DNA from: Octopus vulgaris
Taxonomy: Eukaryota
DNA: 64,000 nucleotides
Assembly (NCBI GenBank): GCA_951406725.2
Contig: OX597821.1
Location: forward strand, 27,652,001 to 27,716,000
Direction of reading: 5' to 3'
Position numbers and translations under genes: made by a program. This document shows positions 1-53,944 of this stretch, in pieces; the first letter of the stretch is position 1, and the number at the start of each line of letters is the position of its first letter. A model generated the notes under the pieces. It was given only the letters and a program-made list of their open reading frames with translations, ran no database searches and was not told where the DNA came from.

Positions 1-400
1 TGTGTGTATAGGTATAAGTGAGAATCTCCTTATTTACCTATAACTCTATCCCCCCTTTTTTTATATATATATTTTTTTATATATATATTTTTTATATATA
101 TTTTTTTTTATATATATTTTTTATATTTTTTATTTTTTTATTTTATTTTTTTATTTTTTATTTTTTTATTTTTTTATTTTTTTATTTATCTATTCTTTCA
201 TCTAACTTACCACTGACTCCTTGACCACTCCCCCAAGTATGATATTTTGCGCTATGCCTACCCCCAAAAAGTCCCCCACCACCACTCCTTTAAACCTGCC
301 TAAATGTATAAATGCTAATACAATTCTTGTTAAATAGCTTCCTGAAGATTTCTCTTGAATGAAACAGTACTAGTCCTGTAGAAGCTCCTTCTATATAATA
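1..400 (+). mobile_element. 3' end (pLTR-like) of a Penelope-like element, third copy; runs off the window start
   Basis: Near-identical to 52575-53018 (GTATAAGTGAGAATCTCC ... GAAGCTCCTTCTATATAATAAA). Ends in an A-run followed by (TA)n. Confidence 0.85.
336..386 (+). ncRNA. Type I hammerhead ribozyme at the PLE 3' end
   Basis: AGCTTC-CTGAAGA-T.TTC(TCTT)GAA.T-GAAA-CAG(TACTAGTC)CTG-TA-GAAGCT. Stem I 6 bp, canonical CUGANGA/GAAA core, stem III 4 bp, GUA triplet, U.U at the base of stem II. Confidence 0.8.
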
Positions 401-406
401 AAAAAA

Positions 407-534
<128 letters not shown>

Positions 535-1247: not shown

Positions 1248-1313
<66 letters not shown>

Positions 1314-1317
<4 letters not shown>

Positions 1318-1425
1318 CCTGCTGGCTTAGCCAGCGGAATGGCGTCATTTAAAGGTTAAAACAATGCGAAACGCATTGTGACCAGCGATATGTAGCAACA
1401 TCTGATAGTCTGGTCGGTCACGGTA
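1314..1425 (+). mobile_element. SINE 3' fragment (tail type shared with 3023-3121 and 22247-22455)
   Basis: GCTTAGCCAGC...AAAACAATGCGAAACGCATTGTGACCAGCGAT.TGTAGCAACATCTGATAG...GGTCACGGT recurs three times in the window. Confidence 0.65.
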
Positions 1426-2580
1426 ATATATATATAAATCATAAGTGCAAGCGGATACATGTGCCCGTATACATTTAGATCAATACTCATTGGAATTTAT
1501 GATTTTCACATGCACACAGATACCACACACACACACACAGATGCTGCATATATATAAATAAGTGTTTGCATATATATGTGTTTGTCTATGTGTGCGTGCT
1601 TGCTCTTGCCTGTGCACGAGTATTTATATAAACATTGCGAATTTTTACATTGGTTCATTGTATCAAATACCTTTTCTCAAACATTTGTTACACGAAATTT
1701 ATCGCACTTGACACTTGTCGAGGACATTCAAGTAATGAAGAAGGCATCACATGCGAACATGCTGCTTTTTATCTTACTGGTAAGTAATCGTATAATTATT
1801 CATTTACATGAAATTTCAATGTCACACAGGAAAATACTCAACGCTATTAAAATTCACATTTTTATGCTTTTGTCATTTATTTATTGTTTCATCTTGAATA
1901 GCTGTTATTTTGGCTGTAGTAGATAAATTAGCATATTCGAATTACTTGTTGATATTTGGGATTACCGTATTGAACTGTTTTGTCCCCATAATGTACATTA
2001 TGTTGAGGCATTCAGCAGCACATTTTGGCAGCACTTACAATAGCTTATTCATTTCCTATTTGTTATTAAAGAAAAATTCTGCTAGATATCTTCCAGCAAT
2101 AAAAAACTATTGACTTCTATCTCATGGAATTTGCTTCTTGTGAATCTCCATATTTCCTTTTTAGAACCTTTTTGGATTTCATTTTTTGTTTTTCATTTTT
2201 ACGAAGAGTCCTTTTTTGCTCTTTTCTTTATTTTCTCTTTCCAAGTCTGCGCAGTTACGTAAGAAGTGCCACAGGAATTTCTATTTATACTATCTGTGAT
2301 GCATGGAATATTAATTTAGAAAAAAGATAAGCCTTTCCAGTGTGAGATGGTTTGATACAAAAACGATATTACATTTCGTATCAACATTTTATCGCACAGG
2401 TGTTTATAAGTCTGTAACCGATTTTGTTTAACTGCTGTCGGGAAATGTCATCTGTTCTGATAGCAACTACTTAATTTTTTGCCAAGGTATTGCAGGTTAT
2501 AATTACATGCTGCATTTATAATTTACTAAAATAAAATAAACTCTTATTTATCCTTTAACACACACGGATACACACATTTT

Positions 2581-2778: not shown

Positions 2779-3149
2779 TTATATATATGACGTTTATGTA
2801 AAAAAAAAAAGAAAGCAGTGAGGCAAGAGGAGTTCGCATAACTTCGTAAATGTCACTAATATTTCATAATGAACTCAAATTAAATCATCAGCTTCGTTGC
2901 TTTTTAATTATATTTGTGACATGACAGGTGTCTCCTTGATGAGCTTCTTTACAGTAGTATATTCCGTTTACGTCTTTGAATCTAATTTGTGTTTGTATGT
3001 GTATGTATTAATATATATATATTTAGCCAGCTGGGTGGCATCACTTGAAGGCTAAAACAATGCAAAGTGAATTGTGACCAGCGATGTGTAGCAACATCTG
3101 ATAGCCTCGTCGGTCACCGTGACTACGGTTATAGATATATATATATATA

Positions 3150-6100
3150 TTATATAAAAGGGCTTAGTAAAATAAATTACTTTGCCGCATACTGAACTCA
3201 TTAGAAATAGCAGCTAAAAAACTTTTTTAAAGCTATTTCTAATACTTAAAGAAAATCTCTCTCATATTGTGTTTGCTTAACTCAACTCACGAAAGTTTGG
3301 GGGTAAGGACATCAAAAAATCAAATGCAAAGGTTATTTGAGAACGTACGTTTCAAGATTAGTCAACACGACACTTCTATCATCAGCTCAGAAACTCCTTG
3401 GTTTGGATTTGAAAACACTGAAAGTAAGAGCATACCCTTTCGGCTTCTCATCGCTTTCGAAGATCTGCTCGTAACTAACAGTGCCAACAAACTCAAATAT
3501 GCAAGCGAAGAATTTCTGTTATCCCCTTTCCACCAGCGTGGGTTAAAATCAGCAAACACTATGCTTATTTCGGTAAAATCCGAAGCATTAATTAGAGGGA
3601 GATTAATTATAATTTCAACAATTGAGGGTAAAATTAATTAATTATTAATCAATTTCACCAAGTGTTCAGTATGCAAAGGGACCATTTAAGGCGAATTCAA
3701 ATTATTACATTATATAAAAGGGCTTAGTAAAATAAATTACTTTGCCGCATACTGAACTCATTAGAAATAGCAGCTAAAAAACTTTTTTAAAGCTATTTCT
3801 AATACTTAAAGAAAATCTCTCTCATATTGTGTTTGCTTAACTCAACTCACGAAAGTTTGGGGGTAAGGACATCAAAAAATCAAATGCAAAGGTTATTTGA
3901 GAACGTACGTTTCAAGATTAGTCAACACGACACTTCTATCATCAGCTCAGAAACTCCTTGGTTTGGATTTGAAAACACTGAAAGTAAGAGCATACCCTTT
4001 CGGCTTCTCATCGCTTTCGAAGATCTGCTCGTAACTAACAGTGCCAACAAACTCAAATATGCAAGCGAAGAATTTCTGTTCTCCCCTTTCCACCAGCGTG
4101 GGTTAAAATCAGCAAACACTATGCTTATTTCGGTAAAATCCGAAGCATTAATTAGAGGGAGATTAATTATAATTTCAACAATTGAGGGTAAAATTAAATT
4201 AATTATTAATCAATTTCACCAAGTGTTCAGTATGCAAAGGGACCATTTAAGGCGAATTCAAATTATTACATTATATAAAAGGGCTTAGTAAAATAAATTA
4301 CTTTGCCGCATACTGAACTCATTAGAAATAGCAGCTAAAAAACTTTTTTAAAGCTATTTCTAATACTTAAAGAAAATCTCTCTCATATAGTGTTTACTTA
4401 ACTCAACTCACGAAAGTTTGGGGGTAAGAACATCAAAAAATCAAATGCAAAGGTTATTTGAGAACGTACGTTTCAAGATTAGTCAACACGACACTTCTAT
4501 CATCAGCTCAGAAACTCCTTGGTTTGGATTTGAAAACACTGAAAGTAAGAGCATACCCTTTCGGCTTCTCATCGCTTTCGAAGATCTGCTCGTAACTAAC
4601 AGTGCCAACAAACTCAAATATGCAAGCGAAGAATTTCTGTTCTCCCCTTTCCACCAGCGTGGGTTAAAATCAGCAAACACTATGCTTATTTCGGTAAAAT
4701 CCGAAGCATTAATTAGAGGGAGATTAATTATAATTTCAACAATTGAGGGTAAAATTAATTAATTATTAATCAATTTCACCAAGTGTTCAGTATGCAAAGG
4801 GACCATTTAAGGCGAATTCAAATTATTACATTATATAAAAGGGCTTAGTAAAATAAATTACTTTGCCGCATACTGAACTCATTAGAAATAGCAGCTAAAA
4901 AACTTTTTTAAAGCTATTTCTAATACTTAAAGAAAATCTCTCTCATATAGTGTTTGCTTAACTCAACTCACGAAAGTTTGGGGGTAAGGACATCAAAAAA
5001 TCAAATGCAAAGGATATTTGAGAACGTACGTTTCAAGATTAGTCAGCACGACACTTCTATCATCAGCTCAGAAACTCCTTGGTTTGGATTTGAAAACACT
5101 GAAAGTAAGAGCATACCCTTTCGGCTTCTCATCGCTTTCGAAGATCTGCTCGTAACTAACAGTGCCAACAAACTCAAATATGCAAGCGAAGAATTTCTGT
5201 TCTCCCCTTTCCACCAGCGTGGGTTAAAATCAGCAAACACTATGCTTATTTCGGTAAAATCCGAAGCATTAATTAGAGGGAGATTAATTATAATTTCAAC
5301 AATTGAGGGTAAAATTAATTAATTATTAATCAATTTCACCAAGTGTTCAGTATGCAAAGGGACCATTTAAGGCGAATTCAAATTATTACATTATATAAAA
5401 GGGCTTAGTAAAATAAATTACTTTGCCGCATACTGAACTCATTAGAAATAGCAGCTAAAAAACTTTTTTAAAGCTATTTCTAATACTTAAAGAAAATCTC
5501 TCTCATATAGTGTTTGCTTAACTCAACTCACGAAAGTTTGGGGGTAAGGACATCAAAAAATCAAATGCAAAGGTTATTTGAGAACGTACGTTTCAAGATT
5601 AGTCAACACGACACTTCTATCATCAGCTCAGAAACTCCTTGGTTTGGATTTGAAAACACTGAAAGTAAGAGCATACCCTTTCGGCTTCTCATCGCTTTCG
5701 AAGATCTGCTCGTAACTAACAGTGCCAACAAACTCAAATATGCAAGCGAAGAATTTCTGTTCTCCCCTTTCCACCAGCGTGGGTTAAAATCAGCAAACAC
5801 TATGCTTATTTCGGTAAAATCCGAAGCATTAATTAGAAGGAGATTAATTATAATTTCAACAATTGAGGGTAAAATTAATTAATTATTAATCAATTTCACC
5901 AAGTGTTCAGTATGCAAAGGGACCATTTAAGGCGAATTCAAATTATTACATTATATAAAAGGGCTTAGTAAAATAAATTACTTTGCCGCATACTGAACTC
6001 ATTAGAAATAGCAGCTAAAAAACTTTTTTAAAGCTATTTCTAATACTTAAAGAAAATCTCTCTCATATAGTGTTTGCTTAACTCAACTCACGAAAGTTTG

Positions 6101-7201
6101 GGGTAAGGACATCAAAAAATCAAATGCAAAGGTTATTTGAGAACGTACGTTTCAAGATTAGTCAACACGACACTTCTATCATCAGCTCAGAAACTCCTTG
6201 GTTTGGATTTGAAAACACTGAAAGTAAGAGCATACCCTTTCGGCTTCTCATCGCTTTCGAAGATCTGCTCGTAACTAACAGTGCCAACAAACTCAAATAT
6301 GCAAGCGAAGAATTTCTGTTCTCCCCTTTCCACCAGCGTGGGTTAAAATCAGCAAACACTATGCTTATTTCGGTAAAATCCGAAGCATTAATTAGAGGGA
6401 GATTAATTATAATTTCAACAATTGAGGGTAAAATTAATTAATTATTAATCAATTTCACCAAGTGTTCAGTATGCAAAGGGACCATTTAAGGCGAATTCAA
6501 ATTATTACATTATATAAAAGGGCTTAGTAAAATAAATTACTTTGCCGCATACTGAACTCATTAGAAATAGCAGCTAAAAAACTTTTTTAAAGCTATTTCT
6601 AATACTTAAAGAAAATCTCTCTCATATAGTGTTTGCTTAACTCAACTCACGAAAGTTTGGGGGTAAGGACATCAAAAAATCAAATGCAAAGGTTATTTGA
6701 GAACGTACGTTTCAAGATTAGTCAACACGACACTTCTATCATCAGCTCAGAAACTCCTTGGTTTGGATTTGAAAACACTGAAAGTAAGAGCATACCCTTT
6801 CGGCTTCTCATCGCTTTCGAAGATCTGCTCGTAACTAACAGTACCAACAAACTCAAATATGCAAGCGAAGAATTTCTGTTCTTCCCTTTCCACCAGCGTG
6901 GGTTAAAATCAGCAAACACTATGCTTATTTCGGTAAAATCCGAAGCATTAATTAGAGGGAGATTAATTATAATTTCAACAATTGAGCATTAATTAGAGGG
7001 AGATTAATTATAATTTCAACAATTGAGGGTAAAATTAATTAATTATTAATCAATTTAACAAAGTGTTCAGTATGCAAAGGGACCATTTAAGGCGAATTCC
7101 AATTATTACATTATATAAAAGGGCTTAGTAAAATAAATTACTTTGCCGCATACTGAACTCATTAGAAATAGCAGCTAAAAAACTTTTTTAAAGCTATTTC
7201 T
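3150..7201 (-). repeat. Tandem array of a ~560-bp HHR-bearing unit (7 full units + partial); retrozyme-like
   Basis: The unit marker TATATAAAAGGGC recurs at 3151, 3711, 4272, 4832, 5392, 5952, 6511 and 7112 (periods 560/561/560/560/560/559/601; the last unit has a 41-bp internal duplication). Units differ by only a few substitutions, and each has an HHR on the minus strand. Confidence 0.9.
3336..3392 (-). ncRNA. Minimal type I hammerhead ribozyme (repeated at ~3896, 4457, 5017, 5577, 6136, 6696)
   Basis: Minus strand: TTCTGAG-CTGATGA-T.AGA.AGT.GTC(GTGTT)GAC.TAA.TCT.T-GAAA-CGTACG-TT-CTCAAA. Stem I TGAG/CTCA, palindromic stem III (ACGTACGT), GUU triplet, U.U at the base of stem II. Confidence 0.7.
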
Positions 7202-7386
7202 AGCTGCTATTTCTAATGAGTTTTTTAGCTGCTATTTCTAATGAGTTCAGTATGCGGCAAAGTAATTTATTTTACTGAGCCCTTTTATATAACGTAATAA
7301 TTTGAATTCGCCTTAAATGGTCCCTTTGCATACTGAACACTTGGTGAAATTGATTAATAATTAATTAATTTTACCCTCAATTGTTG

Positions 7387-7394
<8 letters not shown>
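7202..7394 (+). repeat. Inverted partial copy of the 560-bp unit, ending in (TA)n
   Basis: Reverse complement of the unit junction (GTTCAGTATGCGGCAAAGTAATTTATTTTAC ... TTACCCTCAATTGTTGAAATTATA). TAGCTGCTATTTCTAATGAGTT is duplicated at the inversion point. Confidence 0.85.
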
Positions 7395-14763: not shown

Positions 14764-14987
14764 CCTGCTTATATATATATAGGTATATAATAGATAGATA
14801 GAGAGAGGGGAGGAGAAGCATTTAGTTCAATGGACACTTGATCTTTTGCTTTTACTTGAAATGTTCCCCTTAATCTACATTTTACTGCTTTCATCATAGT
14901 CAGCCATCATTTCACCAACACTATCTATCAAGATATGTTTATGCCTCAAAAAGTGATTATGAATATAAATATAAATATATGTATATA

Positions 14988-15062
<75 letters not shown>

Positions 15063-15065
<3 letters not shown>

Positions 15066-15218
15066 ACGGGCTTCTTTCAGTTTCCGTCTACGAAATCCAC
15101 TCAGAATGCTTTGGTCGGCCCGAGGCTATAGTTGGAGACACTTGCCCAAGATGCGACGTAGTGGGACTGAACCCTGAACTATGTGGTCGTTAAGCAAGTT
15201 ACTTACCACACAGCCACT

Positions 15219-15221
<3 letters not shown>
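15063..15221 (-). mobile_element. tRNA-derived SINE 5' half (family also at 18382-18545, 34681-34837, 38600-38745)
   Basis: Minus-strand head GGAGTGGCTGTGTGGTAAG (A box) ... GGTTCAGTCCC (B box), followed by TTGGGCAAGTGTCT; multi-copy in the window. Confidence 0.75.
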
Positions 15222-15305
<84 letters not shown>

Positions 15306-15830: not shown

Positions 15831-16157
15831 TAATTGTTATCGCCATATTAATATGGCAGTCTTATAGATATAAGACTAAAAGCTGTCGCTGATTAGCTCC
15901 ATCAGGCTATCGCCTTAAGATAGCTATTTGACACACAAACTGTGTCCATTATAACCTTCGAACAAGGGAGGTCAGCCGCTTCACACTGCCAGTCAGACAG
16001 CTACAGACGCGTTTCAGGGTATTTGCCCTTTGTCAATGTAGCGTAGTCGACCCAGCAGGTGTCGCCACTAATCGTCTCTGTTCGGAGGTTTTATTTACCT
16101 AGTTTCGGTGGAATACATCCTCTTGTTTTCAATAATAGTAATTTTAATATTTCTATT
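15830..16157 (-). mobile_element. Short HHR-bearing element between (TA)n tracts, with a chain of hairpins
   Basis: Bounded by (TA)n. HHR at 16000-16042; hairpins at 15842-15857, 15858-15877, 15906-15924 and 15930-15946. Confidence 0.65.
16000..16042 (-). ncRNA. Minimal type I hammerhead ribozyme, U3-A8 core variant
   Basis: Minus strand: GCTACA-TTGACAA-AGGG(CAAATA)CCCT-GAAA-CGCG-TC-TGTAGC. Perfect 6-bp stem I, 4-bp stem II, palindromic stem III, GUC triplet. Confidence 0.8.
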
Positions 16158-16167
16158 ATATATATAT

Positions 16168-16345
16168 AGGGAGAGTTTACGAAAAAAAATACAAAAGACG
16201 AAGACAGGTGGTGTACAAAACAAACAGACGTATTAGTATAACGCTCAGGAATAGAAAAAGTCTTTTACGTTTTGAGCCTACGCTCTCCTACAGAAAGGGA
16301 CACAGAAAACAAGGAAAGGAAAGAATGTGTGTAGTGGCTAACGAG
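16168..16345 (-). mobile_element. Short HHR-like element (same family as 38368-38543)
   Basis: Reverse complement of 38368-38543. Decayed core at 16262-16297: CTTT-CTGTAGG-A-GAGC(GTAG)GCTC-AAAA-CG-TA-AAAG. Confidence 0.65.
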
Positions 16346-18317: not shown

Positions 18318-18380
<63 letters not shown>

Positions 18381-18545
18381 TACGACGGGCTTCTTTCAGT
18401 TTCCGTCCACCAAATAAACTCACAAGGTTTTGGTCGGACCGAAGTTATAATAAAAGACACGTGCCCAAAGTGCCACGCAGTGGGAATGAACCCGGAACCA
18501 TGTGGTTGGGAAGGAAGTCACTTACCACACAGCAACTCCTACGTC
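18092..18545 (-). mobile_element. Full-length tRNA-derived SINE with an internal (CA)n(TA)n microsatellite
   Basis: Head at 18382-18545 as in 15063-15221; 3' part at 18092-18290 ends in AAAAGAGT repeats on the minus strand. Confidence 0.7.
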
Positions 18546-20056: not shown

Positions 20057-22246
20057 CTAGAAGAAGAAAAACTAATAGAAATATTCTTCAACAGCATCCG
20101 TAAAGAATATAAGCAATTATATATTATATTTCATTACCACATTTATTTATAAAATAAAATAAAATACGCAAGTTTAAATAGTAGGCTAAACCAATATTTA
20201 TGAAAATAGTGGACCATCAACGCCACTAACGGAAGGAACGACTACTCTCTACATTGTTGCTCGAGCAGCTATTTCAAGGGAAGGTACTCAGTTCATGTCC
20301 CAAATTATCAAGTTATAAAAAAGAAAAGCATATTGAAATATTTTGTTGAAAAGAAACAAAGAAAATGAATGTCTGACATGTGAAATCGGAACCTGCATAC
20401 AAGAATTTAATGCGGCATTCTACTGTCGTTGAAATCATCTCTGTAAAATCATATTGCCTTATGGCATTCTAGTTTGTAACAAATAGAATATCTGTGGCTT
20501 AAGAAATGATCAAACGTGAGTTGAAAATATCTTAATCTCATATGAAATCAATTCTTTAGAATTTTAATTTAATAGAGATTTTAATCAGAATGGTTATAGA
20601 AAATGTTATTCCACTTCCGAAGATTTGAATAAAATGTCTGTATTTAAAAAATCTGTTTACATTTAATCATGAAACTATAGATGTAAATATAAAGTTTGGC
20701 CTCTACAAATACTAAGAGGATAAGAGAGAGACAAGACGCATATATATCCACGAAGAAGAGCTTTTACGAATTTGAATATAATGAATATTTACGTGTAATA
20801 AAAAGGTGGGGGGTCATCTTGAAAGAAAAATAAGAAAGTATACCAAAAAAAGTTTGAAGTTTTGTGCATAGATATTGGATATCAAATACGAAAAACTGTC
20901 ACTGTAGAACAATGCATTTAATTTGGGAATGTAAATCATAAAAAATAAGAGAAAGCCATGTATTAATAATCTAGCGTTTTCTCAGGCGAGAATAAAGAAC
21001 ACATATACGGGAACAGTATCAAATAACACAAAAGATACATTACCATGACGATAAATGTGAAATATATATTTAATGATATTGTTGATAGAGGCTTAGAAAT
21101 GGCAATATGTGAAAACCACTTGGTCTATTTGACTAAAGATTGTCTCAGAAAACAATCTTGAATATTTAGAAACGATTAAAGACTCTCTCTATATATTTGC
21201 AAATAGATTTACTTTCTTGGTGACCAAACATAGTAACAATGAAATGATGTTTGTAAACAGTGAACAAGAATGCTTACTTATTTTAAGGAATGACCAGGGC
21301 ATATTTTCCAGATGCATGTACCTATGAAAACTGAATTCTGAATTTCGAGAAAACACCAACAGGAAACCACAACGAATTCCAGTCATACATTCAAGAATAT
21401 ATCGATTCTACAGAGACAAACGAAACGATCAAATCTGAGTTCTGAAGCCTGGGAGAAATTTAAAGTGTGTCGCTAATAATTAGTTGGTAGTTTGGTGGTC
21501 CTCACTCTCCTAGCCTTAAAAAAAAACAATCCCACAGTGTGCTATGCATGACATTCGGAAAAGAGAGTCCGTTCCAAATGTTTGAGAATCTTTGTCTATT
21601 AGGCAACAATTACTCTAGGCCCATTTTGTCTTTCAGCTATGTCCGAGGTAATTGATAAACTATTGCCGATAATTCAGATTAAATTCTGTGTCTGGAAATC
21701 AACAATCTTTTTGGAGGTGTATTGCTCGACTAGGAAAAATGTCACATCTCTCAATCTCTCTCACCCCTCCCTTCTTTTCACTCTGTACATTTGTGTATAT
21801 GTTCGTATGCATGCACGCACACACACACAAACACACAGACACACACATATATATCCGAACGTTTAAGCGTAATTATATATCAATTGTGCTATCTGCCTAA
21901 CGATCAGTGTCGACATTCTTATAAAAACTTGCTCGTAACAAATTTTGAGTAAAACGTCTAATTATTATATAATTACATACATCCACTGCATTCTCCCTTT
22001 GATACCAAATGTGTTTTTTTCCACTATGTCAAATATACACTTAATATAAATCGCACATCTTACATACATGACATGCATATACTTCCTTTGATACAGATAC
22101 TTCTATTCTTGCACTCATTCATATATGTGTGTGTATGTAGGCATTTTTGTATGTATGTCTGTAAGTATATATATATGTATGTATATATGTATGTATGTAT
22201 ACATGTATATATGTATGTATGTATACATGTATATATATATATATAT

Positions 22247-22453
22247 CACCGTGACCGCCCAGGCTATCAGATGTTGCTACACATTGCTGGTCACAATGCG
22301 CTTCGCATTGTTTTAGCCTTCAAATGACGCCACCACGCTGGCTAAGCGAGCAGGCCAATAGAAGAAAGAGTGAAAGAAAGTTGTGGCGAAAGAGTAGAGC
22401 AGGAATCGCTACCACCTCCTGCCGGAGCCTCGTGGAGCTGTAGGTGTTTTCGC

Positions 22454-34680: not shown

Positions 34681-34941
<261 letters not shown>

Positions 34942-36043: not shown

Positions 36044-36049
<6 letters not shown>

Positions 36050-36262
36050 CAAGATAAGCAACAATAATATCTCGGTAATTTGGTACGATCGTTTCACGCT
36101 ACATGATTTTATTAAGCATTCTAAGTATTACAGGAGTTCTAAAATGATGAGTGCTCAACATTTTAAAACTGCTGTAACATTTACAATGTTTAATAAAATG
36201 ATGTAGCGTGAAACGATCGTACCAAATTCCCGAAGATATTCTTGTTGCTTATTTTGATTATA
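36044..36262. repeat. ~220-bp fold-back palindrome adjacent to (TA)n
   Basis: Arms include the perfect AATTTGGTACGATCGTTTCACGCTACAT / ATGTAGCGTGAAACGATCGTACCAAATT and the outer TATAATCAA.ATAAGCAACAA / TTGTTGCTTAT.TTGATTATA. Confidence 0.85.
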
Positions 36263-38367: not shown

Positions 38368-38539
38368 TCGTTAGCCACTACACACATTTTTTTTCTCTCC
38401 GTGTTTTTTCTGTGTCCCTTTCTGTAGAAGAGCGTAGGCTCGAAACGTAAACGATTTTTTTAATACCTGAGCGTTATACTAATACATCTGTTAGTATTGT
38501 ATACCACCCGTCTTTGTCTTTTGTTTTTTCGTAAACTCT

Positions 38540-38543
<4 letters not shown>
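38368..38543 (+). mobile_element. Short HHR-like element ending in (TA)n
   Basis: 38418-38453: CTTT-CTGTAGA-A-GAGC(GTAG)GCTC-GAAA-CG-TA-AACG (A6U variant core); inverted copy at 16168-16345. Confidence 0.65.
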
Positions 38544-38599
<56 letters not shown>

Positions 38600-39119
38600 G
38601 CGGCCGGCTTCTTATAGTAACCTTCTACCAAAATGTAATCACAAGTCTTCGGTTTGTTCAGTACTAACGTAAAAGACACATGCCTCGCGAAGCGGGAATG
38701 AACCCGCAACTAAGTGGTCGGAAAGCAAGCTTCTTACCACACCTACATATATATACTACAGACATAATACTGTCAGTTACAACTAAAAATAAAATTAATA
38801 TACTTAAGATATAATTACAACCAATTCAATTAAAAGAACGAGAGAACGGATGTACATAAATAGTAGTAGATATCGACATCAAAACGGTATGTCAAAGATA
38901 ACCACAATACTCTGTTATATATGTCGATAAGTTAGAAAGGAAAACAATATAAGCGCATGGATGAATCATAATTGGCATTACCATTCATGGGAGACCACAC
39001 TTAACCAGTTTAAATTTTAAAAAAAGAAAACAACCGAAATGAGGAAAGAAAAGCGAAAACCAAGTAACTTATCATCAGTCTGTGATATATGCGACAATAA
39101 AAACAATGGTATCGTTTCA

Positions 39120-46001: not shown

Positions 46002-46492
46002 ATTTATTATATAGAAGGAGCTTCTACAGGACTAGTACTGTTTCATTCAAGAGAAATCTTCAGGAAGCTATTTAACAAGAATTGTATTAGCATTTATACA
46101 TTTAGGCAGGTTTAAAGGAGTGGTGGTGGGGGACTTTTTGGGGGGTAGGCATAGCGCAAAATATCATACTTGGGGGAGTGGTCAAGGAGTCAGTGGTAAG
46201 TTAGATGAAAGAATAGATAAATAAAAAAATAAAAAAATAATAAAAAATATAAAAAATAAAAAATAAAAAATAAAAAATAAAAAAATAAAATAAAATAAAA
46301 TAAAAAAATATAAAATATAAAAAATATATATAAAAAAATATATATATAAAATATATATATACAAAAATATATATATAAAAAAAAGGGGGGATAGAGTTAT
46401 AGGTAAATAAGGAGATTCTCACTTATACCTATACACACATGTATACGTATCTACACACACATACATACATACACATATATATACACACACAT

Positions 46493-48317: not shown

Positions 48318-48690
48318 TACACGTACACATATACATATGTATATATATATCAACAAGGGAGGGTAAGGTTAATTAGTTATTAAACAATTTCATCAAGTGT
48401 TCAGTATGTAAAGGGACCATTATTATTTTGAGTAAACAATGTTAGAGGGAAAAAAATTCTCTAAGTAGTGGAAGAGGCTAAAAAACTTTATTGGCTGCTA
48501 TTTCTAGAAAGTTTAGTATGTGGCAAAGTAATTTATTTTATATTCCTAATCCCTAATTATATAATATTTTATACATACATACACATACATAAGCACATAC
48601 ATTTACACATACATATGCATATACATATATACACATATACATACAAACACATATACACATATACACACACACACACATACAAGCACATAC

Positions 48691-48742
<52 letters not shown>

Positions 48743-49420
48743 GCAAATATATATACATATATATTTTTTTACATGCATACATACACACACACACACATAA
48801 TACATGCGTATATTCCTACTGTACCCATGCATTTCTATACAAATATACATACATACATACGATACACATATACAAGCGTGCACATATAATATGTGAAAGG
48901 TCTTAGGAGAAAAGGTAATCGGGGGTGCTAGGGGAACAGTGGGGTTGGGGGGGGGTTGTAGGGGGGTTGTCATCAATCAGGTTGCCGGGTAGGTCTATAG
49001 TTCTTGTAGTTCGCATACTTCTTATGCATACAATTTGGGGAGTGTTCTGAAAATTTGTTAAGGAGAGGGCCTTTGGCGAACAAGATCTCTAGGCTCTCTG
49101 ATATGCATAGGTCACAGCAGGTATGTCCTCCTGTGTACGAGCGCGCCTTCTGTAGTAGTTTCCACTTGGTCTTGAAGGGGATTGAGTTCCTTTTAAGGTA
49201 CCAGATGTGGGCGGCGAGGGTAGTTTGGTTGGATTTATCCTGGCTAGGTTGGGCGTGGTAGAGTAGGAGAGTCTAATAGTGTTCTTATTTAGGATAGTGT
49301 AGTACTTATGTTGGGTGGGGAAGTGTTTCTGTAGGAGAGTGAAAAAGATCTTAGCTACAGGTGTAGCGACCTCACGGTTGAAGGGGGAGTTGTACCTCAC
49401 GGTTGAAGGGGGAGTTGTAC
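46002..49420 (-). mobile_element. Left arm: inverted, 5'-truncated Penelope-like (Naiad-type) element with a ~250-bp internal deletion
   Basis: Reverse complement of 49419-53019, but lacking ~49546-49794 (joined through CAGGA microhomology at ~49238-49242). Extends slightly further 5' (YNSPFNREVAT). Confidence 0.9.
46019..46069 (-). ncRNA. Type I hammerhead ribozyme (left-arm copy)
   Basis: Exact reverse complement of 52952-53002. Confidence 0.8.
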
Positions 49421-50063
49421 ACCTGTAGCTAAGATCTTTTTCACTCTCCTACAGAAACACTTCCCCACACAACATAAGTACTACACTATCCTAAATAAGA
49501 ACACTATTAGACTCTCCTACTCTACCACGCCCAACCTAGCCAGGAACCTAGCCAACAACAATGTGAAAAAACTTAACATATCTACTTTCTCCGGGGCCCA
49601 CCCAACGTCCGATAGCAATTGCAACTGCCATGATAAAACCACCTGCCCCCTCAACAACAACTGCCTACAGAGGGACCTAGTATATAAATGCGAGGTAAGA
49701 TCAGGCCTTGACGATAAAAGTAAATCCTACATTGGAATGACGTCAAACAGCTTTAAGACCCGCTGGTATGCACATACACACTCGTTCCGGCGACAGGATA
49801 AATCCAACCAAACTACCCTCGCCGCCCACATCTGGTACCTTAAAAGGAACTCAATCCCCTTCAAGACCAAGTGGAAACTACTACAGAAGGCGCGCTCGTA
49901 CACAGGAGGACATACCTGCTGTGACCTATGCATATCAGAGAGCCTAGAGATCTTGTTTGCCAAAGGCCCTCTCCTTAACAAATTTTCAGAACACTCCCCA
50001 AATTGTATGCATAAGAAGTATGCGAACTACAAGAACTATAGACCTACCCGGCAACCTGATTGA
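49419..50063 (+). CDS. C-terminal part of a PLE polyprotein: RT-thumb/linker + Cys motif + GIY-YIG endonuclease (5'-truncated, frame uninterrupted)
   Basis: TPVAKIFFTLLQKHFPTQHKYYTILNKNTIRLSYS..CNCHDKTTCPLNNNCL..LVYKC..SYIGMTSNSFKTRWYAHTHSF..TTLAAHIWYLK..CDLCISE..LLNK..CMH. This shows VY/YIG, R, H, E and N GIY-YIG residues plus the CxC-x5-C-x5-C and CxxC motifs typical of Naiad-clade PLEs. Confidence 0.88.
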   Translation, partial: TPVAKIFFTLLQKHFPTQHKYYTILNKNTIRLSYSTTPNLARNLANNNVKKLNISTFSGAHPTSDSNCNCHDKTTCPLNNNCLQRDLVYKCEVRSGLDDKSKSYIGMTSNSFKTRWYAHTHSFRRQDKSNQTTLAAHIWYLKRNSIPFKTKWKLLQKARSYTGGHTCCDLCISESLEILFAKGPLLNKFSEHSPNCMHKKYANYKNYRPTRQPD

Positions 50064-50304
50064 TGACAACCCCCCCCTACAACCCCCCTACAACCCCCCC
50101 AACCCCACTGTTCCCCTAGCACCCCCGATTACCTTTTCTCCTAAGACCTTTCACATATTATATGTGCACGCTTGTATATGTGTATCGTATGTATGTATGT
50201 ATATTTGTATAGAAATGCATGGGTACAGTAGGAATATACGCATGTATTATGTGTGTGTGTGTGTATGTATGCATGTAAAAAAATATATATGTATATATAT
50301 TTGC

Positions 50305-50356
<52 letters not shown>

Positions 50357-50484
50357 GTATGTGCTTGTATGTGTGTGTGTGTGTATATGTGTATATGTGT
50401 TTGTATGTATATGTGTATATATGTATATGCATATGTATGTGTAAATGTATGTGCTTATGTATGTGTATGTATGTATAAAATATT

Positions 50485-50700
50485 ATATAATTAGGGATTA
50501 GGAATATAAAATAAATTACTTTGCCACATACTAAACTTTCTAGAAATAGCAGCCAATAAAGTTTTTTAGCCTCTTCCACTACTTAGAGAATTTTTTTCCC
50601 TCTAACATTGTTTACTCAAAATAATAATGGTCCCTTTACATACTGAACACTTGATGAAATTGTTTAATAACTAATTAACCTTACCCTCCCTTGTTGATAT
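50485..50700. repeat. Module homologous to the 560-bp array unit, embedded in the PLE 3' region (mirror copy 48349-48570)
   Basis: AAAATAAATTACTTTGCC.CATACT.AACT...TAGAAATAGCAGC matches the unit start. ATGGTCCCTTT.CATACTGAACACTTG.TGAAATTG.TTAATAA.TAATTAA..TTACCCTC matches the inverted unit end (cf. 7317-7386). Confidence 0.8.
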
Positions 50701-50729
50701 ATATATACATATGTATATGTGTACGTGTA

Positions 50730-50778
<49 letters not shown>

Positions 50779-51034
50779 ATGTGTGTATGTATGTATGTAT
50801 TTGTATATATGTGTGTGTGTATATGTATGTGTGCGCGTGTGTGTGTATGTATGTGTATACTTGTATATGTATATGCATGAATGTATATATATGTGTGTGT
50901 ATATGTGTATTATGTATGTATTTATATAGATATGTAGTTTATATATATATATGTATGTATATGCATCTGTCTGTGTGTGTGTATGTGTATATATGTGTAT
51001 CATTTTTGCGTATGTATACATGTATATGTGTGTA

Positions 51035-51087
<53 letters not shown>

Positions 51088-51288
51088 ATATATATGTATA
51101 TGTATATATATGCATACGTATGTGTATGTACATGTACATATGTATGTGTGTATATGTATATATGTTTATATATGTGAGTATGTAGTGATATAAGTATATG
51201 CATGTGTATGTATGGGTATGTGTATCAGTGTATATGTATATATGTATGTGTGTGTGTATGTATATGTATGTATGTGTGTATATATGTA

Positions 51289-51333
<45 letters not shown>

Positions 51334-51412
51334 ATATATGTGTGTATGTATGTGTATGTGTATGTATGCGTATGTGTATCTATGTATGTATATATATATG
51401 TATATATATGTA

Positions 51413-51443
<31 letters not shown>

Positions 51444-51725
51444 GAGTGCGTGTGTGTATGTATGCATATATGTATGTATGCATGTATATGTGTATGTATA
51501 TATATGTGTGTAAGTGTGTGCATATATGTATTTGTAAGTATGTGTGCGCGTATGAGTATGTATGTATGCTTGCACACGTGTGTATATATATGTGTGTGTG
51601 TGTATATATATGGATGCGCGTGCGTGTGTGCACGTGTATGGGTACGCATGTATATGTGTATGTGCGTGTATGCATATACGTGTATGTATGTATGTGTGTG
51701 CGTGGATTTGTATATGTATGTGTGA

Positions 51726-51764
<39 letters not shown>

Positions 51765-51956
51765 TATATATAGATGGGTGTGTGTATGCGTATAAATGCA
51801 TGTAAGTATGGATGTATGGATGTATGTATGTATGTATACGTATGTATGTGTGTATGTGTGTATGTATATATATATATGTGTGTATATATGTTTGTGTATG
51901 TATATATATGTGTATGTATGTGTGTGTATATGTATGTGTGTATGTGTATGTATGTG

Positions 51957-52013
<57 letters not shown>

Positions 52014-52951
52014 GTATATATATGTATAGGTATGTATCTGTATGTAGGAGTATATATGTGTGTGTGTGTATGTATATGCGGGTATATACATATATATATA
52101 TATGTATATTTATTGGTGTATATGTATAGTCTAGCCTCCTAAAGTGTAGACATGAATCTGTAGGTACGAGTACGTATGTGTATATACGTGAACGTATGTA
52201 GATGTTTGTATGTATGAATATAACGCGTGCGTACGTGTATGTGTATGAGTGTACGAATGGGTGAATGTACGTGCTAATGAGTGTGCGTGCGGGAATGAGT
52301 ACTTGCCTTCTAGTAGACAGACAAATGGACTGCAGCCATTGCCAGGATTCTTAGCCCTAGCGATCAAAGATAACAAAAGTAATAAATGAAGATAATAAAA
52401 TTAAAATTAGGGAATGGGCCTGTATTGGATTGTATATATATATATGTATATGTATATTTGTATGTATGTATGTGTGCATGTGTAGGTATGTATATGTATG
52501 TATATATATGTATATATGTATATGTGTGTGTATATATATGTGTATGTATGTATGTGTGTGTAGATACGTATACATGTGTGTATAGGTATAAGTGAGAATC
52601 TCCTTATTTACCTATAACTCTATCCCCCCTTTTTTTATATATATATTTTTGTATATATATATTTTATATATATATTTTTTTATATATATTTTTTATATTT
52701 TATATTTTTTTATTTTATTTTATTTTATTTTTTATTTTTTATTTTTTATTTTTTATTTTTTATATTTTTTTATTATTTTTTTATTTTTTTATTTTTTTAT
52801 TTATCTATTCTTTCATCTAACTTACCACTGACTCCTTGACCACTCCCCCAAGTATGATATTTTGCGCTATGCCTACCCCCCAAAAAGTCCCCCACCACCA
52901 CTCCTTTAAACCTGCCTAAATGTATAAATGCTAATACAATTCTTGTTAAAT

Positions 52952-53002
52952 AGCTTCCTGAAGATTTCTCTTGAATGAAACAGTACTAGTCCTGTAGAAG
53001 CT
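52952..53002 (+). ncRNA. Type I hammerhead ribozyme (right-arm copy)
   Basis: AGCTTC-CTGAAGA-TTTCTCTTGAAT-GAAA-CAGTACTAGTCCTG-TA-GAAGCT; predicted cleavage after A52996. Confidence 0.8.
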
Positions 53003-53944
53003 CCTTCTATATAATAAATTAATTTTACTCTGCCATGTATTGAGTACCTTACTTACTGTGGTTAACCCCGAATCAACCCGGGACCTACATATGTATATAT
53101 ATATGTATATATATATGTATGTATATATATATCTATATCTATCTATCCCTCTCTCTCTATATATATATGACTATTTTTTCCAGTCAGTTATTCACCATTA
53201 CACATGTTTCATTCCGTAAGAGGAATCTCGAAATTGTCCATATTGGATAGATGTGAAAAAAATTCCTATAAGAAAATAGTTTGGCAGAGAATCATATATG
53301 TTATTTCTACAGATTTTCTATAGAATTTAGAAACAGTAAAAAAGTTATGACATTACGTATACGAACACATCTATGTAAACAGCGTGAAGCATCTTAACTT
53401 TCAGTGTTGGCTCTAACTCCTATAGGAAATTAGAAGAGATAACACAGAGTTAATTAAATCCATTGTTAACTCGAAACTTAGGATACTGTATTGAGTTATA
53501 ATCTTTTAATGTTCTTGCGAGTATACTATGATTCAAGAACAAAATACGTTATCTTTATCAGCATATACGAATATGGGTGTGTGTGCGCGCGCGTGTGTAT
53601 GGAATGTTCAGGTACGTGCGCTCTCACCACTGAGAACACAGACTTAGTTGTCCTCAGACACCAATGGATTATCTATCATCAAATTCATATACATTAACAG
53701 TGCCTGGACTACCTACTTGTCGAGGCATCAAGCGAAAAATAAATGGCACACGTAAAGATGGACTTTTGTCTCTGAAATTTTCGCACCAATATTCAATGAA
53801 AAAAATATTGAACACTCTCCGGTTTTTGTTTGCTTACTTTGTTTTTATGCATCAACGTATTCTTCTGTTTGTATATCTCTCTGTATACCAATCTGCCTAT
53901 ACGGTACGTGCCTCCCTACCTGCCTGCCTGCCTACCTACTAACA

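What the first reader, a model, noticed from the sequence alone, without database searches (positions are those of the whole stretch)
48349..50700. The PLE 3' region carries a diverged piece of the retrozyme-like unit, linking the autonomous and non-autonomous elements
Seen: a ~215-bp island between microsatellites (50485-50700; mirror 48349-48570) consists of the start of the 560-bp unit joined to the inverted end of the unit. It terminates at essentially the same point (TTACCCTC..TTGTTGA..TATA) as the inverted tail of the array at ~7372-7394. It lacks the HHR. Inference: either a relative of the array family inserted into (TA)n of the PLE progenitor and now hitchhikes, or the two share a cis element recognised by the PLE RT/EN. 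The shared endpoint suggests a defined 3' priming terminus.
Basis: partly seen in the sequence, partly recalled or inferred. Interest (0 to 1): 0.72.

Follow-up and report, generated by a model that had tools for sequence, protein, structure and literature searches.

The report
Retrozyme stub hitchhiking inside Penelope retrotransposon
A 216-base, ribozyme-less scrap of a tandem-repeat RNA parasite, half of it flipped, sits deep inside the long 3' region of a Penelope-like jumping gene and is likely a decayed passenger copied along with it, while the host element's own ends lie over 2 kb away beside an RNA hairpin shared by its relatives that likely marks where copying starts.

Summary
The island (50482-50697, identical mirror 48350-48565) is unit nt 61-193 reversed (82% identity) joined to unit nt 215-290 forward (88%). 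It lacks the hammerhead and ends at the same two TATA sites (E1, E2) as the 560-bp array.

The island is not at the PLE's priming end. It lies inside a 2.9-kb spacer, 2.3 kb upstream of the PLE's own hammerhead and termini. Its hairpins have decayed, and its inversion junction and left flank recur at high depth in public contigs. It is most likely a two-armed retrozyme stub inserted into (TA)n of a Hydra-clade PLE progenitor and amplified as cargo. It is unlikely to be a working cis element.

By-product: Hydra-type PLEs carry two tandem conserved hairpins after the hammerhead. Three informative copies end 2-4 nt upstream of one or the other, and this PLE's tail carries the first hairpin. The unit also uses two fixed ends, and its E1 region weakly resembles this PLE's tail. 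That resemblance, not the island, is the candidate link between autonomous and non-autonomous element. No whole genome was available for a presence/absence count.

The parts
50482..50697 (+). Island: two-armed stub of a diverged relative of the 560-bp unit, flanked by TA/TATG microsatellite
50482..50619 (-). Island arm 1: unit sense nt 61-193 on the minus strand, ending outward at E1; 105/128 identical
50620..50625 (.). 6-nt inversion junction; the 31-mers across it occur in a 71-nt contig with 0 differences at depth 4188
50626..50697 (+). Island arm 2: unit sense nt 215-290, ending outward at E2; 66/75 identical; terminal hairpin broken
48350..48565 (-). Mirror island inside the left PLE arm, identical
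49407..50063 (+). 5'-truncated Hydra-type PLE ORF (thumb end, CxCX5C linker, GIY-YIG endonuclease with CxxC/CxH), 218 aa
46002..49419 (-). Left PLE arm (head-to-head copy; 253-nt internal deletion; 25-bp duplication at the central junction 49369-49420; hammerhead core at 46063; ends at E1' in (TA)n)
50064..52957 (+). Unusually long 3' spacer of the PLE: microsatellites, the island, a unique block 52131-52430, a T-rich tract
52952..53003 (+). The PLE's own minimal type I hammerhead (core 52958, predicted cut after 52991, U.U at base of helix II)
53008..53019 (+). E1': main PLE terminus, used by the left arm and by the copy at the window start
53027..53047 (+). Hydra tail hairpin H1 (first pair swapped G-C to A-U); top window hit of a model built only from other genomes, 23 bits, E 0.004
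53020..53088 (+). PLE tail, present only on the right arm, ending at E2' in (TA)n
1..410 (+). Third copy of the PLE 3' end (hammerhead core 342, ends at E1'); starts downstream of the island position, so uninformative for presence/absence
3149..7202 (-). Array of ~7.2 units of 560 bp (retrozyme-like; hammerhead core in 7 of 7 full units), outer end at E1 in (TA)n
7219..7394 (+). Inverted tail of the array (unit nt 118-294), outer end at E2 in (TA)n; 25-bp duplication at the junction 7197-7247

Best explanation
The island is a ribozyme-less fragment of the 560-bp unit's family with its first half inverted, lying inside the 3' spacer of a Penelope-like element 2.3 kb from that element's ends, and it is likely a decayed two-armed insertion that has been copied as passive cargo. 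Inferred steps: (1) a PLE endonuclease cut both strands of a (TA)n tract in the spacer of a Hydra-clade master copy; (2) each strand primed reverse transcription on RNA of a sister subfamily of the unit, one at E1 and one at E2, both cDNAs stopped early and were joined head to head, giving in 216 bp the same layout as the 4.2-kb array and the 7-kb PLE insertion; (3) because the stub lies between the ORF and the PLE's hammerhead it is part of the PLE RNA and rides in every copy long enough to reach it; (4) the PLE's own start sites are set by the hammerhead-TATA-hairpin module at 52958-53088, not by the island. Shown: homology, arm geometry, shared ends, position, loss of structure, multi-copy junction, hairpin at the PLE end.
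For: Geometry: arms are sense nt 61-193 (inverted) and 215-290, with outer ends at E1 and E2 like the array. Position: PLE hammerhead and termini lie 2.3-2.4 kb downstream. Both arms hold the island with 0 of 228 differences and the duplication stops at PLE termini. Multi-copy with constant junction: a 71-nt contig 50563-50633, 0 differences, depth 4188 in run X17, where other listed pieces lie at depth 11-445; an 87-nt variant with 7 differences and 1 gap runs to 50629 at depth 297; a 60-nt contig 50467-50526 at depth 815 in X5 joins island to this left flank; a variant lacking the island's 5-nt insert keeps the flank. Recurrent ends: an X9 contig of array type ends at E2 followed by (TA)n, and one X5 contig (depth 82) shows a different arm 1 to arm 2 joint. 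Decay: island fold z 0.28 vs unit z -6.4; terminal hairpin 5 of 14 pairs broken, 0 compensated, -9.7 to -0.1 kcal/mol. Real terminus signal lies elsewhere: a model from 24 Hydra-type loci of other genomes (covariation reached by 0 of 500 shuffles) hits 53007-53055 best in the window and gives no hairpin-containing hit in the island. Precedent: inverted 5'-truncated copies and tails (PMC8557442), two-strand cleavage and two RT start sites (PMC11167929), captured 0.9-1.5 kb spacers before the 3' pLTR (PMC3846280).
Against: No genome was held, so presence/absence of the island across PLE copies was not scored. The junction contig has only 8 letters of arm 2, short of the tool's 31-letters-each-side rule; no listed piece spans the stretch; contig depth is not a copy number; 50692-50730 was skipped as repeat; 607 pieces and 32 loose ends were not shown. 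The shared left flank is 15-30 nt of degenerate microsatellite and does not prove linkage to the ORF. The second joint has only 24 letters on its short side. The unit has only three TATA sites, so shared ends could follow from target homology alone. Stem B keeps 16 of 22 pairs unchanged and one compensated pair, so not all structure signal is gone in sequence terms, although the inversion prevents that stem from forming. A deletion from a longer array insertion would give the same end product.
Confidence: 0.6

Rival explanations
1. Passenger by deletion: a longer retrozyme array with an inverted tail once sat in the PLE spacer, and a DNA-level or template-switch deletion left only its two ends.
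For: The island equals left end plus right end of the array at 3149-7394. An internal hammerhead-bearing array would cut the PLE RNA, which would select for losing it (inference). The left PLE arm has a 253-nt deletion, so deletions do occur here.
Against: The two arms nearly abut on the unit (193 vs 215), as expected from one short inversion event. A second, different short joint exists in X5, so stubs may arise directly.
Confidence: 0.17
2. The island (alone or with short flanks) is its own mobile mini-element that amplified independently and happens to sit in this PLE.
For: High depth of the exact junction, and diverged variants sharing it.
Against: The left flank is shared with the window's copy in listed contigs, and no island-type loose end at the left boundary appears among those shown. 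It lacks a hammerhead and folding.
Confidence: 0.1
3. The island is a functional cis element that the PLE and the retrozyme share and that RT/EN recognises.
For: Arm 2 is in PLE sense and ends at E2, a recurrent retrozyme terminus. It keeps a 7-mer resembling the 3' strand of the Hydra hairpin at 50644.
Against: It lies 2.3 kb from every PLE end seen (3 of 3 copies end after the hammerhead). Hairpins are broken without compensation. No model hit. In 45 of 80 related loci with a hammerhead-like match, it lies 63-518 nt after the endonuclease match, and none of the 80 loci has BLAST similarity to island or unit.
Confidence: 0.07
4. The island is the ancestral source: the 560-bp unit arose from this part of the PLE 3' region, as retrozymes are proposed to derive from pLTRs.
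For: Retrozymes resemble pLTRs in Xenopus (10.64898/2026.07.22.740005). The PLE tail aligns weakly with the unit's E1 region.
Against: The island is inverted relative to the intact, well-folding unit, covers only about 210 of 560 nt, has no hammerhead and is bounded by TA tracts like an insertion. No other part of the spacer matched the unit at E 1e-5.
Confidence: 0.04
5. The mirror copy is an assembly fold-back artefact.
For: Arms are 97.7% identical over 3.2 kb.
Against: The arms differ by a 253-nt deletion, other indels and substitutions in unique sequence, and they end at different PLE termini with different flanks.
Confidence: 0.02

Closest known systems
Hydra-clade Penelope-like elements (Craig et al. 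2021, PMC8557442)
   Same: C-terminal GIY-YIG, CxCX5C linker, no CCHH, CxxC and CxH motifs, hammerhead, (TA)n targets, head-to-head 5'-truncated copies with a tail on one end.
   Different: Described families are generally under 3 kb in all, whereas here the ORF-to-hammerhead spacer alone is 2.9 kb and carries a retrozyme stub. The tail is ~70 nt rather than 30-40. The twin hairpins were not mentioned in the passages, section 11 or the one searchable supplement.
Animal non-LTR retrozymes (Cervera & de la Pena 2020, PMC7229834; Li, Clavereau & Pollet 2026, 10.64898/2026.07.22.740005)
   Same: The array: tandem, low-GC, non-coding, strongly folding units, each with a type I hammerhead core.
   Different: Monomer 560 nt (170-400 in the first paper, 51-972 in the second). 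The array has a PLE-type inverted tail and two fixed ends in (TA)n. The island itself has no hammerhead and one rearranged partial unit, so it is a derivative and not a retrozyme.
Pen1_Av of Adineta vaga (Arkhipova et al. 2013, PMC3846280)
   Same: 3' pLTR separated from the ORF by a long captured spacer; head-to-head inverted structures.
   Different: There the spacers differ between copies and are host DNA. Here the spacer appears to be shared by many copies and includes a piece of a non-autonomous element.
Poseidon PAc two-site internal initiation (Frangieh et al. 2024, PMC11167929)
   Same: Both strands cut and extended; two RT start sites downstream of the hammerhead define the tail.
   Different: PAc starts in an AC-rich stem loop inside the ORF without homology to the target. 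In Hydra-type loci the ends lie in AT-rich sequence just 5' of two repeated hairpins upstream of the ATG.

Membership tests
Hydra-clade PLE (host element) | C-terminal GIY-YIG endonuclease without CCHH | tested here: met
   ORF ends in an EN-like domain; alignment shows no conserved cysteine pair between the GIY- and YIG-equivalent motifs
Hydra-clade PLE (host element) | CxCX5C linker; CxxC and CxH around the conserved E and N | tested here: met
   C72/C74 with a third C five residues on; C172/C175; C200/H202
Hydra-clade PLE (host element) | RT with RWK and DKT motifs | tested here: inconclusive
   RT is missing from the window copy (5'-truncated); DKT in 12 of 12 and RW[KR] in 9 of 12 relatives of 690 aa or more
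Hydra-clade PLE (host element) | Type I hammerhead in the 3' repeat; (TA)n insertion | tested here: met
   Core motif at 52958, 46063 and 342, ends in (TA)n. Rfam did not report it; cleavage untested
Hydra-clade PLE (host element) | Placement in the RT phylogeny | not tested
   No RT in the window and no named reference sequences in hand
Non-LTR retrozyme (array) | At least two tandem units each with a type I hammerhead | tested here: met
   7 of 7 full units by motif and stem check; no Rfam hammerhead hit
Non-LTR retrozyme (array) | Non-coding, GC below 50%, highly self-paired | tested here: met
   GC 34%; longest stop-to-stop frame 91/123 aa; z -6.4
Non-LTR retrozyme (array) | Self-cleavage and circular RNA in vivo | not testable with these tools
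   Only contigs were available and no run is on record as RNA
Non-LTR retrozyme (island) | Hammerhead present and tandem units | tested here: not met
   No CTGANGA on either strand; single rearranged partial unit
PLE terminal cis element (island) | Located at the element's 3' ends and structurally conserved | tested here: not met
   2.3 kb from ends; hairpins broken; no model hit

The most novel reading that the evidence does not exclude
Hydra-clade PLE reverse transcriptases start copying just upstream of two tandem conserved RNA hairpins between hammerhead and start codon, one per target strand. This 560-nt retrozyme parasitises a Hydra PLE by presenting two diverged mimics of that signal (two similar 7-mers, each about 41 nt past E1 and E2, plus a 62-column likeness between its E1 region and this PLE's tail). 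The island is then the fossil of the parasite inserting into its own driver.
Probability: 0.3. Interest if true: 0.65.

Novelty: new variant of a known kind. Interest (0 to 1): 0.38.

Why it matters
The island itself is ordinary nested-insertion debris. It does show a retrozyme-family sequence inserted with PLE-type geometry (two arms, two fixed ends, TA target), which is insertion-level support for the still indirect claim that PLEs mobilise animal retrozymes. The more useful by-product is a short, covarying, repeated hairpin next to the two 3' termini of Hydra-type PLEs. It gives a concrete, testable RNA signal for how PLE tails and head-to-head insertions form, and a way to ask which PLE drives which retrozyme.

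Tried and rejected
Earlier-findings look-ups by place, by sequence (island, unit, ORF) and by two word sets returned nothing; one word search returned 8 notes on other genomes. Rfam: 0 hits at gathering in the window and no hammerhead family at E<=5 in either region; hammerheads rest on motif and stem checks. My first hammerhead script found nothing because it demanded a pair at the base of helix II; the relaxed version found the 7 array cores but not the PLE's bulged one, which was located by exact search. Pfam gave only a sub-threshold match. A pattern shared by island and unit had 0 matches in metagenome contigs. No RNA holder was listed. Run X1 (RNA by guess) and run X9 (other species label) had no cover over the island junction; this is not used as evidence. 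My idea that the unit carries a canonical Hydra hairpin after E2 failed the model test (5 weak hits, none with the hairpin); the two 7-mer look-alikes have P about 0.05 and were chosen after the fact. A 19/21 match between the PLE tail and the unit just before E2 (0 of 1000 shuffles, but 1 of 144 genomic control segments) is AT-rich and is not relied on. Inversion by recombination between the unit's internal inverted repeat was rejected because it would flip nt ~159-224, not 61-193.
Full report
OBSERVATION. The island at 50478-50705 and its mirror at 48342-48569 are identical (0 of 228). Against two tandem units it scores 91 on one strand and 98 on the other; 1000 dinucleotide shuffles each reached at most 39 and 36. 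Seven of seven full array units carry a type I hammerhead core on the minus strand, which fixes the unit's RNA sense. Numbered from the predicted cut, arm 1 of the island is the reverse complement of nt 61-193 (105/128 identical, 14 gap columns) and arm 2 is nt 215-290 forward (66/75); the array's inverted tail is nt 118-294. So the island is one nearly continuous piece of the unit with its first part flipped. Its outer ends are the same two TATA sites, E1 (nt ~186-193) and E2 (nt ~291-294), that end the array. It has no hammerhead core.

THE HOST ELEMENT. The 218-aa frame at 49407-50063 is the end of a Penelope-like ORF: 36% identical to a 712-aa RT-EN protein, with 6028 relatives at E<=0.001. 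Atlas neighbours with a recorded taxon are mostly Mollusca, on one or two members each. That the host looks octopus-like is my recalled impression from the microsatellite load and is untested. The linker and endonuclease motifs match the Hydra clade as defined in PMC8557442 (section 11 read whole, other passages). The insertion is head-to-head. The right arm runs from ~49417 to ~53088 and the left from 49419 to 46002. The arms differ by a 253-nt deletion, small indels and substitutions, and they end at different points, so this is not a fold-back artefact. The PLE has its own hammerhead core at 52958, mirrored at 46063 and repeated at 342. The left arm and the copy at 1-410 end about 25 nt after the predicted cut (E1'); the right arm runs ~70 nt further (E2'). 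The island is therefore 2322-2391 nt inside the 3' ends, in a 2928-nt stretch between stop codon and cut site. In 80 related loci from metagenomes (best 80 of 228 confirmed), a loose hammerhead pattern was found downstream in 45, at a median of 169 nt (63-518) from the end of the protein match. The pattern includes some false hits and many contigs are short, so long spacers are under-sampled. Still, this spacer is far outside that range. Captured spacers of 0.9-1.5 kb before the 3' pLTR are known from Pen1_Av (PMC3846280, passages).

IS THE ISLAND MULTI-COPY, AND IN WHAT CONTEXT? No genome is held. I laid contigs of 4 of the 24 listed runs on 50450-50730 at 88% likeness. In X17, a 71-nt contig covers 50563-50633 with no difference at depth 4188, while other listed pieces are at 11-445. 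Its last 31-mers cross the inversion junction, though only 8 letters lie in arm 2, below the tool's bridging rule. An 87-nt variant (7 differences, 1 gap, depth 297) runs to 50629, and a 66-nt piece (5 differences) covers 50605-50670. In X5, a 60-nt contig at depth 815 joins the island to this copy's left flank, and 22 contigs run over the stretch's ends. A variant lacking the island's 5-nt insert keeps the same flank (X1, X5). So the junction is old enough to have diverged variants and is abundant, probably hundreds of copies (rough inference; the tool warns that depth is no copy number). It travels with at least 15-30 nt of the same flank. The right flank was skipped as repeat, no listed piece spans the stretch, and 607 pieces were not shown. 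Linkage to the ORF in other copies is therefore inferred, not shown. Two further rows bear on endpoints: an array-type contig in X9 ends at E2 followed by (TA)n, and one X5 contig (depth 82, short side 24) joins arm 1 at 50530 to arm 2 by a different junction, which may be an independent stub. Against over-reading: the monomer has only three TATA sites (nt 74, 186, 291).

IS IT FUNCTIONAL? The monomer folds far better than shuffles (z -6.4); the island does not (z 0.28). Mapped onto the unit's hairpins, the island breaks 5 of 14 pairs in the hairpin before E2 and 4 of 19 in hairpin A, with no compensated pair in either. The long stem around E1 keeps 16 of 22 pairs unchanged and has one compensated pair, but the inversion puts its two strands in the same orientation, so it cannot form. 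This is the picture of a decaying passenger from a sister subfamily.

WHAT MARKS THE PLE'S REAL ENDS. Downstream of the hammerhead the related loci share a hairpin, GCTC-stem-loop-stem-two-base bulge-GAGCAC. Of 47 loci with a core match, 33 had at least 120 nt downstream and 23 matched a loose pattern. I dropped 2 of these (L028, L030), re-cut 4 and added 3 loci without a core match, giving 24 sequences. Pairing is 92.9%, with 18 cells changed on both sides; 0 of 500 shuffles reach the covariation score, and slid controls fall to 18-55%. The model contains no window sequence. Over the whole window its best hit is 53007-53055, the PLE tail (23 bits, E 0.004, rough calibration); the next is 16.7 bits in the palindrome at 36143-36195. 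It finds no hairpin-containing hit in the unit or the island. Over all 80 loci it gives 54 hits at E<=0.5 (the 24 training sites match by construction); 14 loci show two hits 55-83 nt apart, and printed flanks show the order hammerhead, hairpin 1, hairpin 2, start codon. Comparing same-family copies gave 12 rows: 6 full matches, 3 different families, and 3 informative departures. L036 and L046 end 2-3 nt before hairpin 1, and L044 ends about 4 nt before hairpin 2, each running into an AT repeat. This matches E1' (8 nt before the hairpin at 53027) and suggests that E2' precedes an uncopied second hairpin. It parallels the two RT start sites and two-strand extension shown for Poseidon PAc (PMC11167929, main text parts 1-2 of 4), where initiation needed no target homology. 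Three cases is a small sample.

LINK BETWEEN PLE AND RETROZYME. Both hammerheads have U.U at the base of helix II, as do 22 of 39 distinct hammerheads in the related loci; the same mismatch is known from an axolotl retrozyme (PMC7229834, passages), so it is not diagnostic. The PLE tail aligns colinearly with the unit's E1 region, terminus on terminus: 44 identities in 62 columns; 1-6 of 1000 shuffles and 0 of 144 genomic segments reach it under three scorings, but tails of 34 other Hydra loci come close (19 vs 22, 41 vs 45, 126 vs 130). Among 77 TATATAA sites outside the array, the PLE terminus ranks first for likeness to E1 (21 vs mean 12.8, sd 1.8; window sizes chosen after seeing the match). 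The unit has two 7-mers like the hairpin's 3' strand, about 41 nt past E1 and E2 (P about 0.05), but the model does not accept them. So partnership with a Hydra-type PLE is plausible and partnership with this family is unproven.

MECHANISM AND RIVALS. Most likely (0.6): a direct two-armed, early-terminated insertion of a sister-subfamily retrozyme RNA into a TA tract of the PLE's spacer, then passive co-retrotransposition. Deletion from a longer nested array (0.17) gives the same passenger. Independent mini-element 0.10, functional shared cis element 0.07, ancestral source of the unit 0.04, artefact 0.02. PMC3846280 proposes self-priming on an antisense template for head-to-head forms; my data do not separate that from two-strand target priming.

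WHAT IS KNOWN. That animal retrozymes are non-autonomous PLE derivatives is argued in 10.64898/2026.07.22.740005 (parts 1-3 of 5 read) and suggested in PMC7229834. Inverted truncated copies, tails and (TA)n targeting are standard (PMC8557442). I found no report of a retrozyme stub carried in a PLE spacer, or of the twin hairpins, in searches (listings; the three hits of 88 were not opened). The one searchable supplement of PMC8557442 has 0 occurrences of 'hairpin' or 'stem-loop', but its figures were not seen. PMC13282606 on an octopus genome has 0 occurrences of 'ribozyme' or 'Hydra' in its main text. Subscription papers and Repbase notes are outside the library. Notes from this scan on other genomes describe similar palindromic PLE stubs and tandem non-autonomous arrays with PLE-type ends; they are unchecked and are not counted as support.

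VERDICT. Real feature, mostly ordinary cause: a new variant of known PLE and retrozyme behaviour. Interest 0.38, carried mainly by the hairpin-terminus by-product.

Noticed in passing
L008, L010, L011, L024, L033, L034, L036, L040, L042, L046, L052, L062, L071, L077; window 53027-53047: Hydra-type PLEs carry two tandem conserved hairpins (55-83 nt apart) between hammerhead and start codon; three informative copies end 2-4 nt upstream of one of them. Not found in the papers searched.
   Followed up: partly
window 36044-36262 (to ~36355): An 88% palindrome between (TA)n tracts, with the right arm ~95 nt longer than the left; its centre gives the second-best hit to the Hydra hairpin model (16.7 bits, E 0.24). 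Probably another two-armed PLE-type stub of a different family.
   Followed up: partly
window 52998-53058 vs unit nt 176-235: The PLE tail aligns colinearly with the retrozyme unit around E1 (44/62 columns), terminus on terminus; suggestive only, since other Hydra tails score close.
   Followed up: partly
window 16147-16344 and 38368-38565: Two copies (87%) of another repeat ending in a C-rich motif plus (TA)n, with a degenerate hammerhead-like stretch by eye; probably 3' ends of an older PLE family.
   Followed up: no
window 7197-7247 and 49369-49420: Both the array and the PLE have a 25-bp tandem duplication at their inversion junction; the array also has a 41-bp duplication at 6944-7027.
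   Followed up: no
window 1312-1439, 3023-3150, 22223-22360: A ~128-nt dispersed repeat (85-90%) next to (TA)n; one copy abuts the TA tract at the array's left end.
   Followed up: no
window 14963-15222, 18340-18541, 34689-34939, 38556-38742: A ~200-nt SINE-like family, each copy attached to a (TA)n tract.
   Followed up: no
window 49242 / 49541-49794: The left PLE arm lacks 253 nt of the ORF between short shared sequences, so the two arms came from different templates or one skipped during copying.
   Followed up: partly
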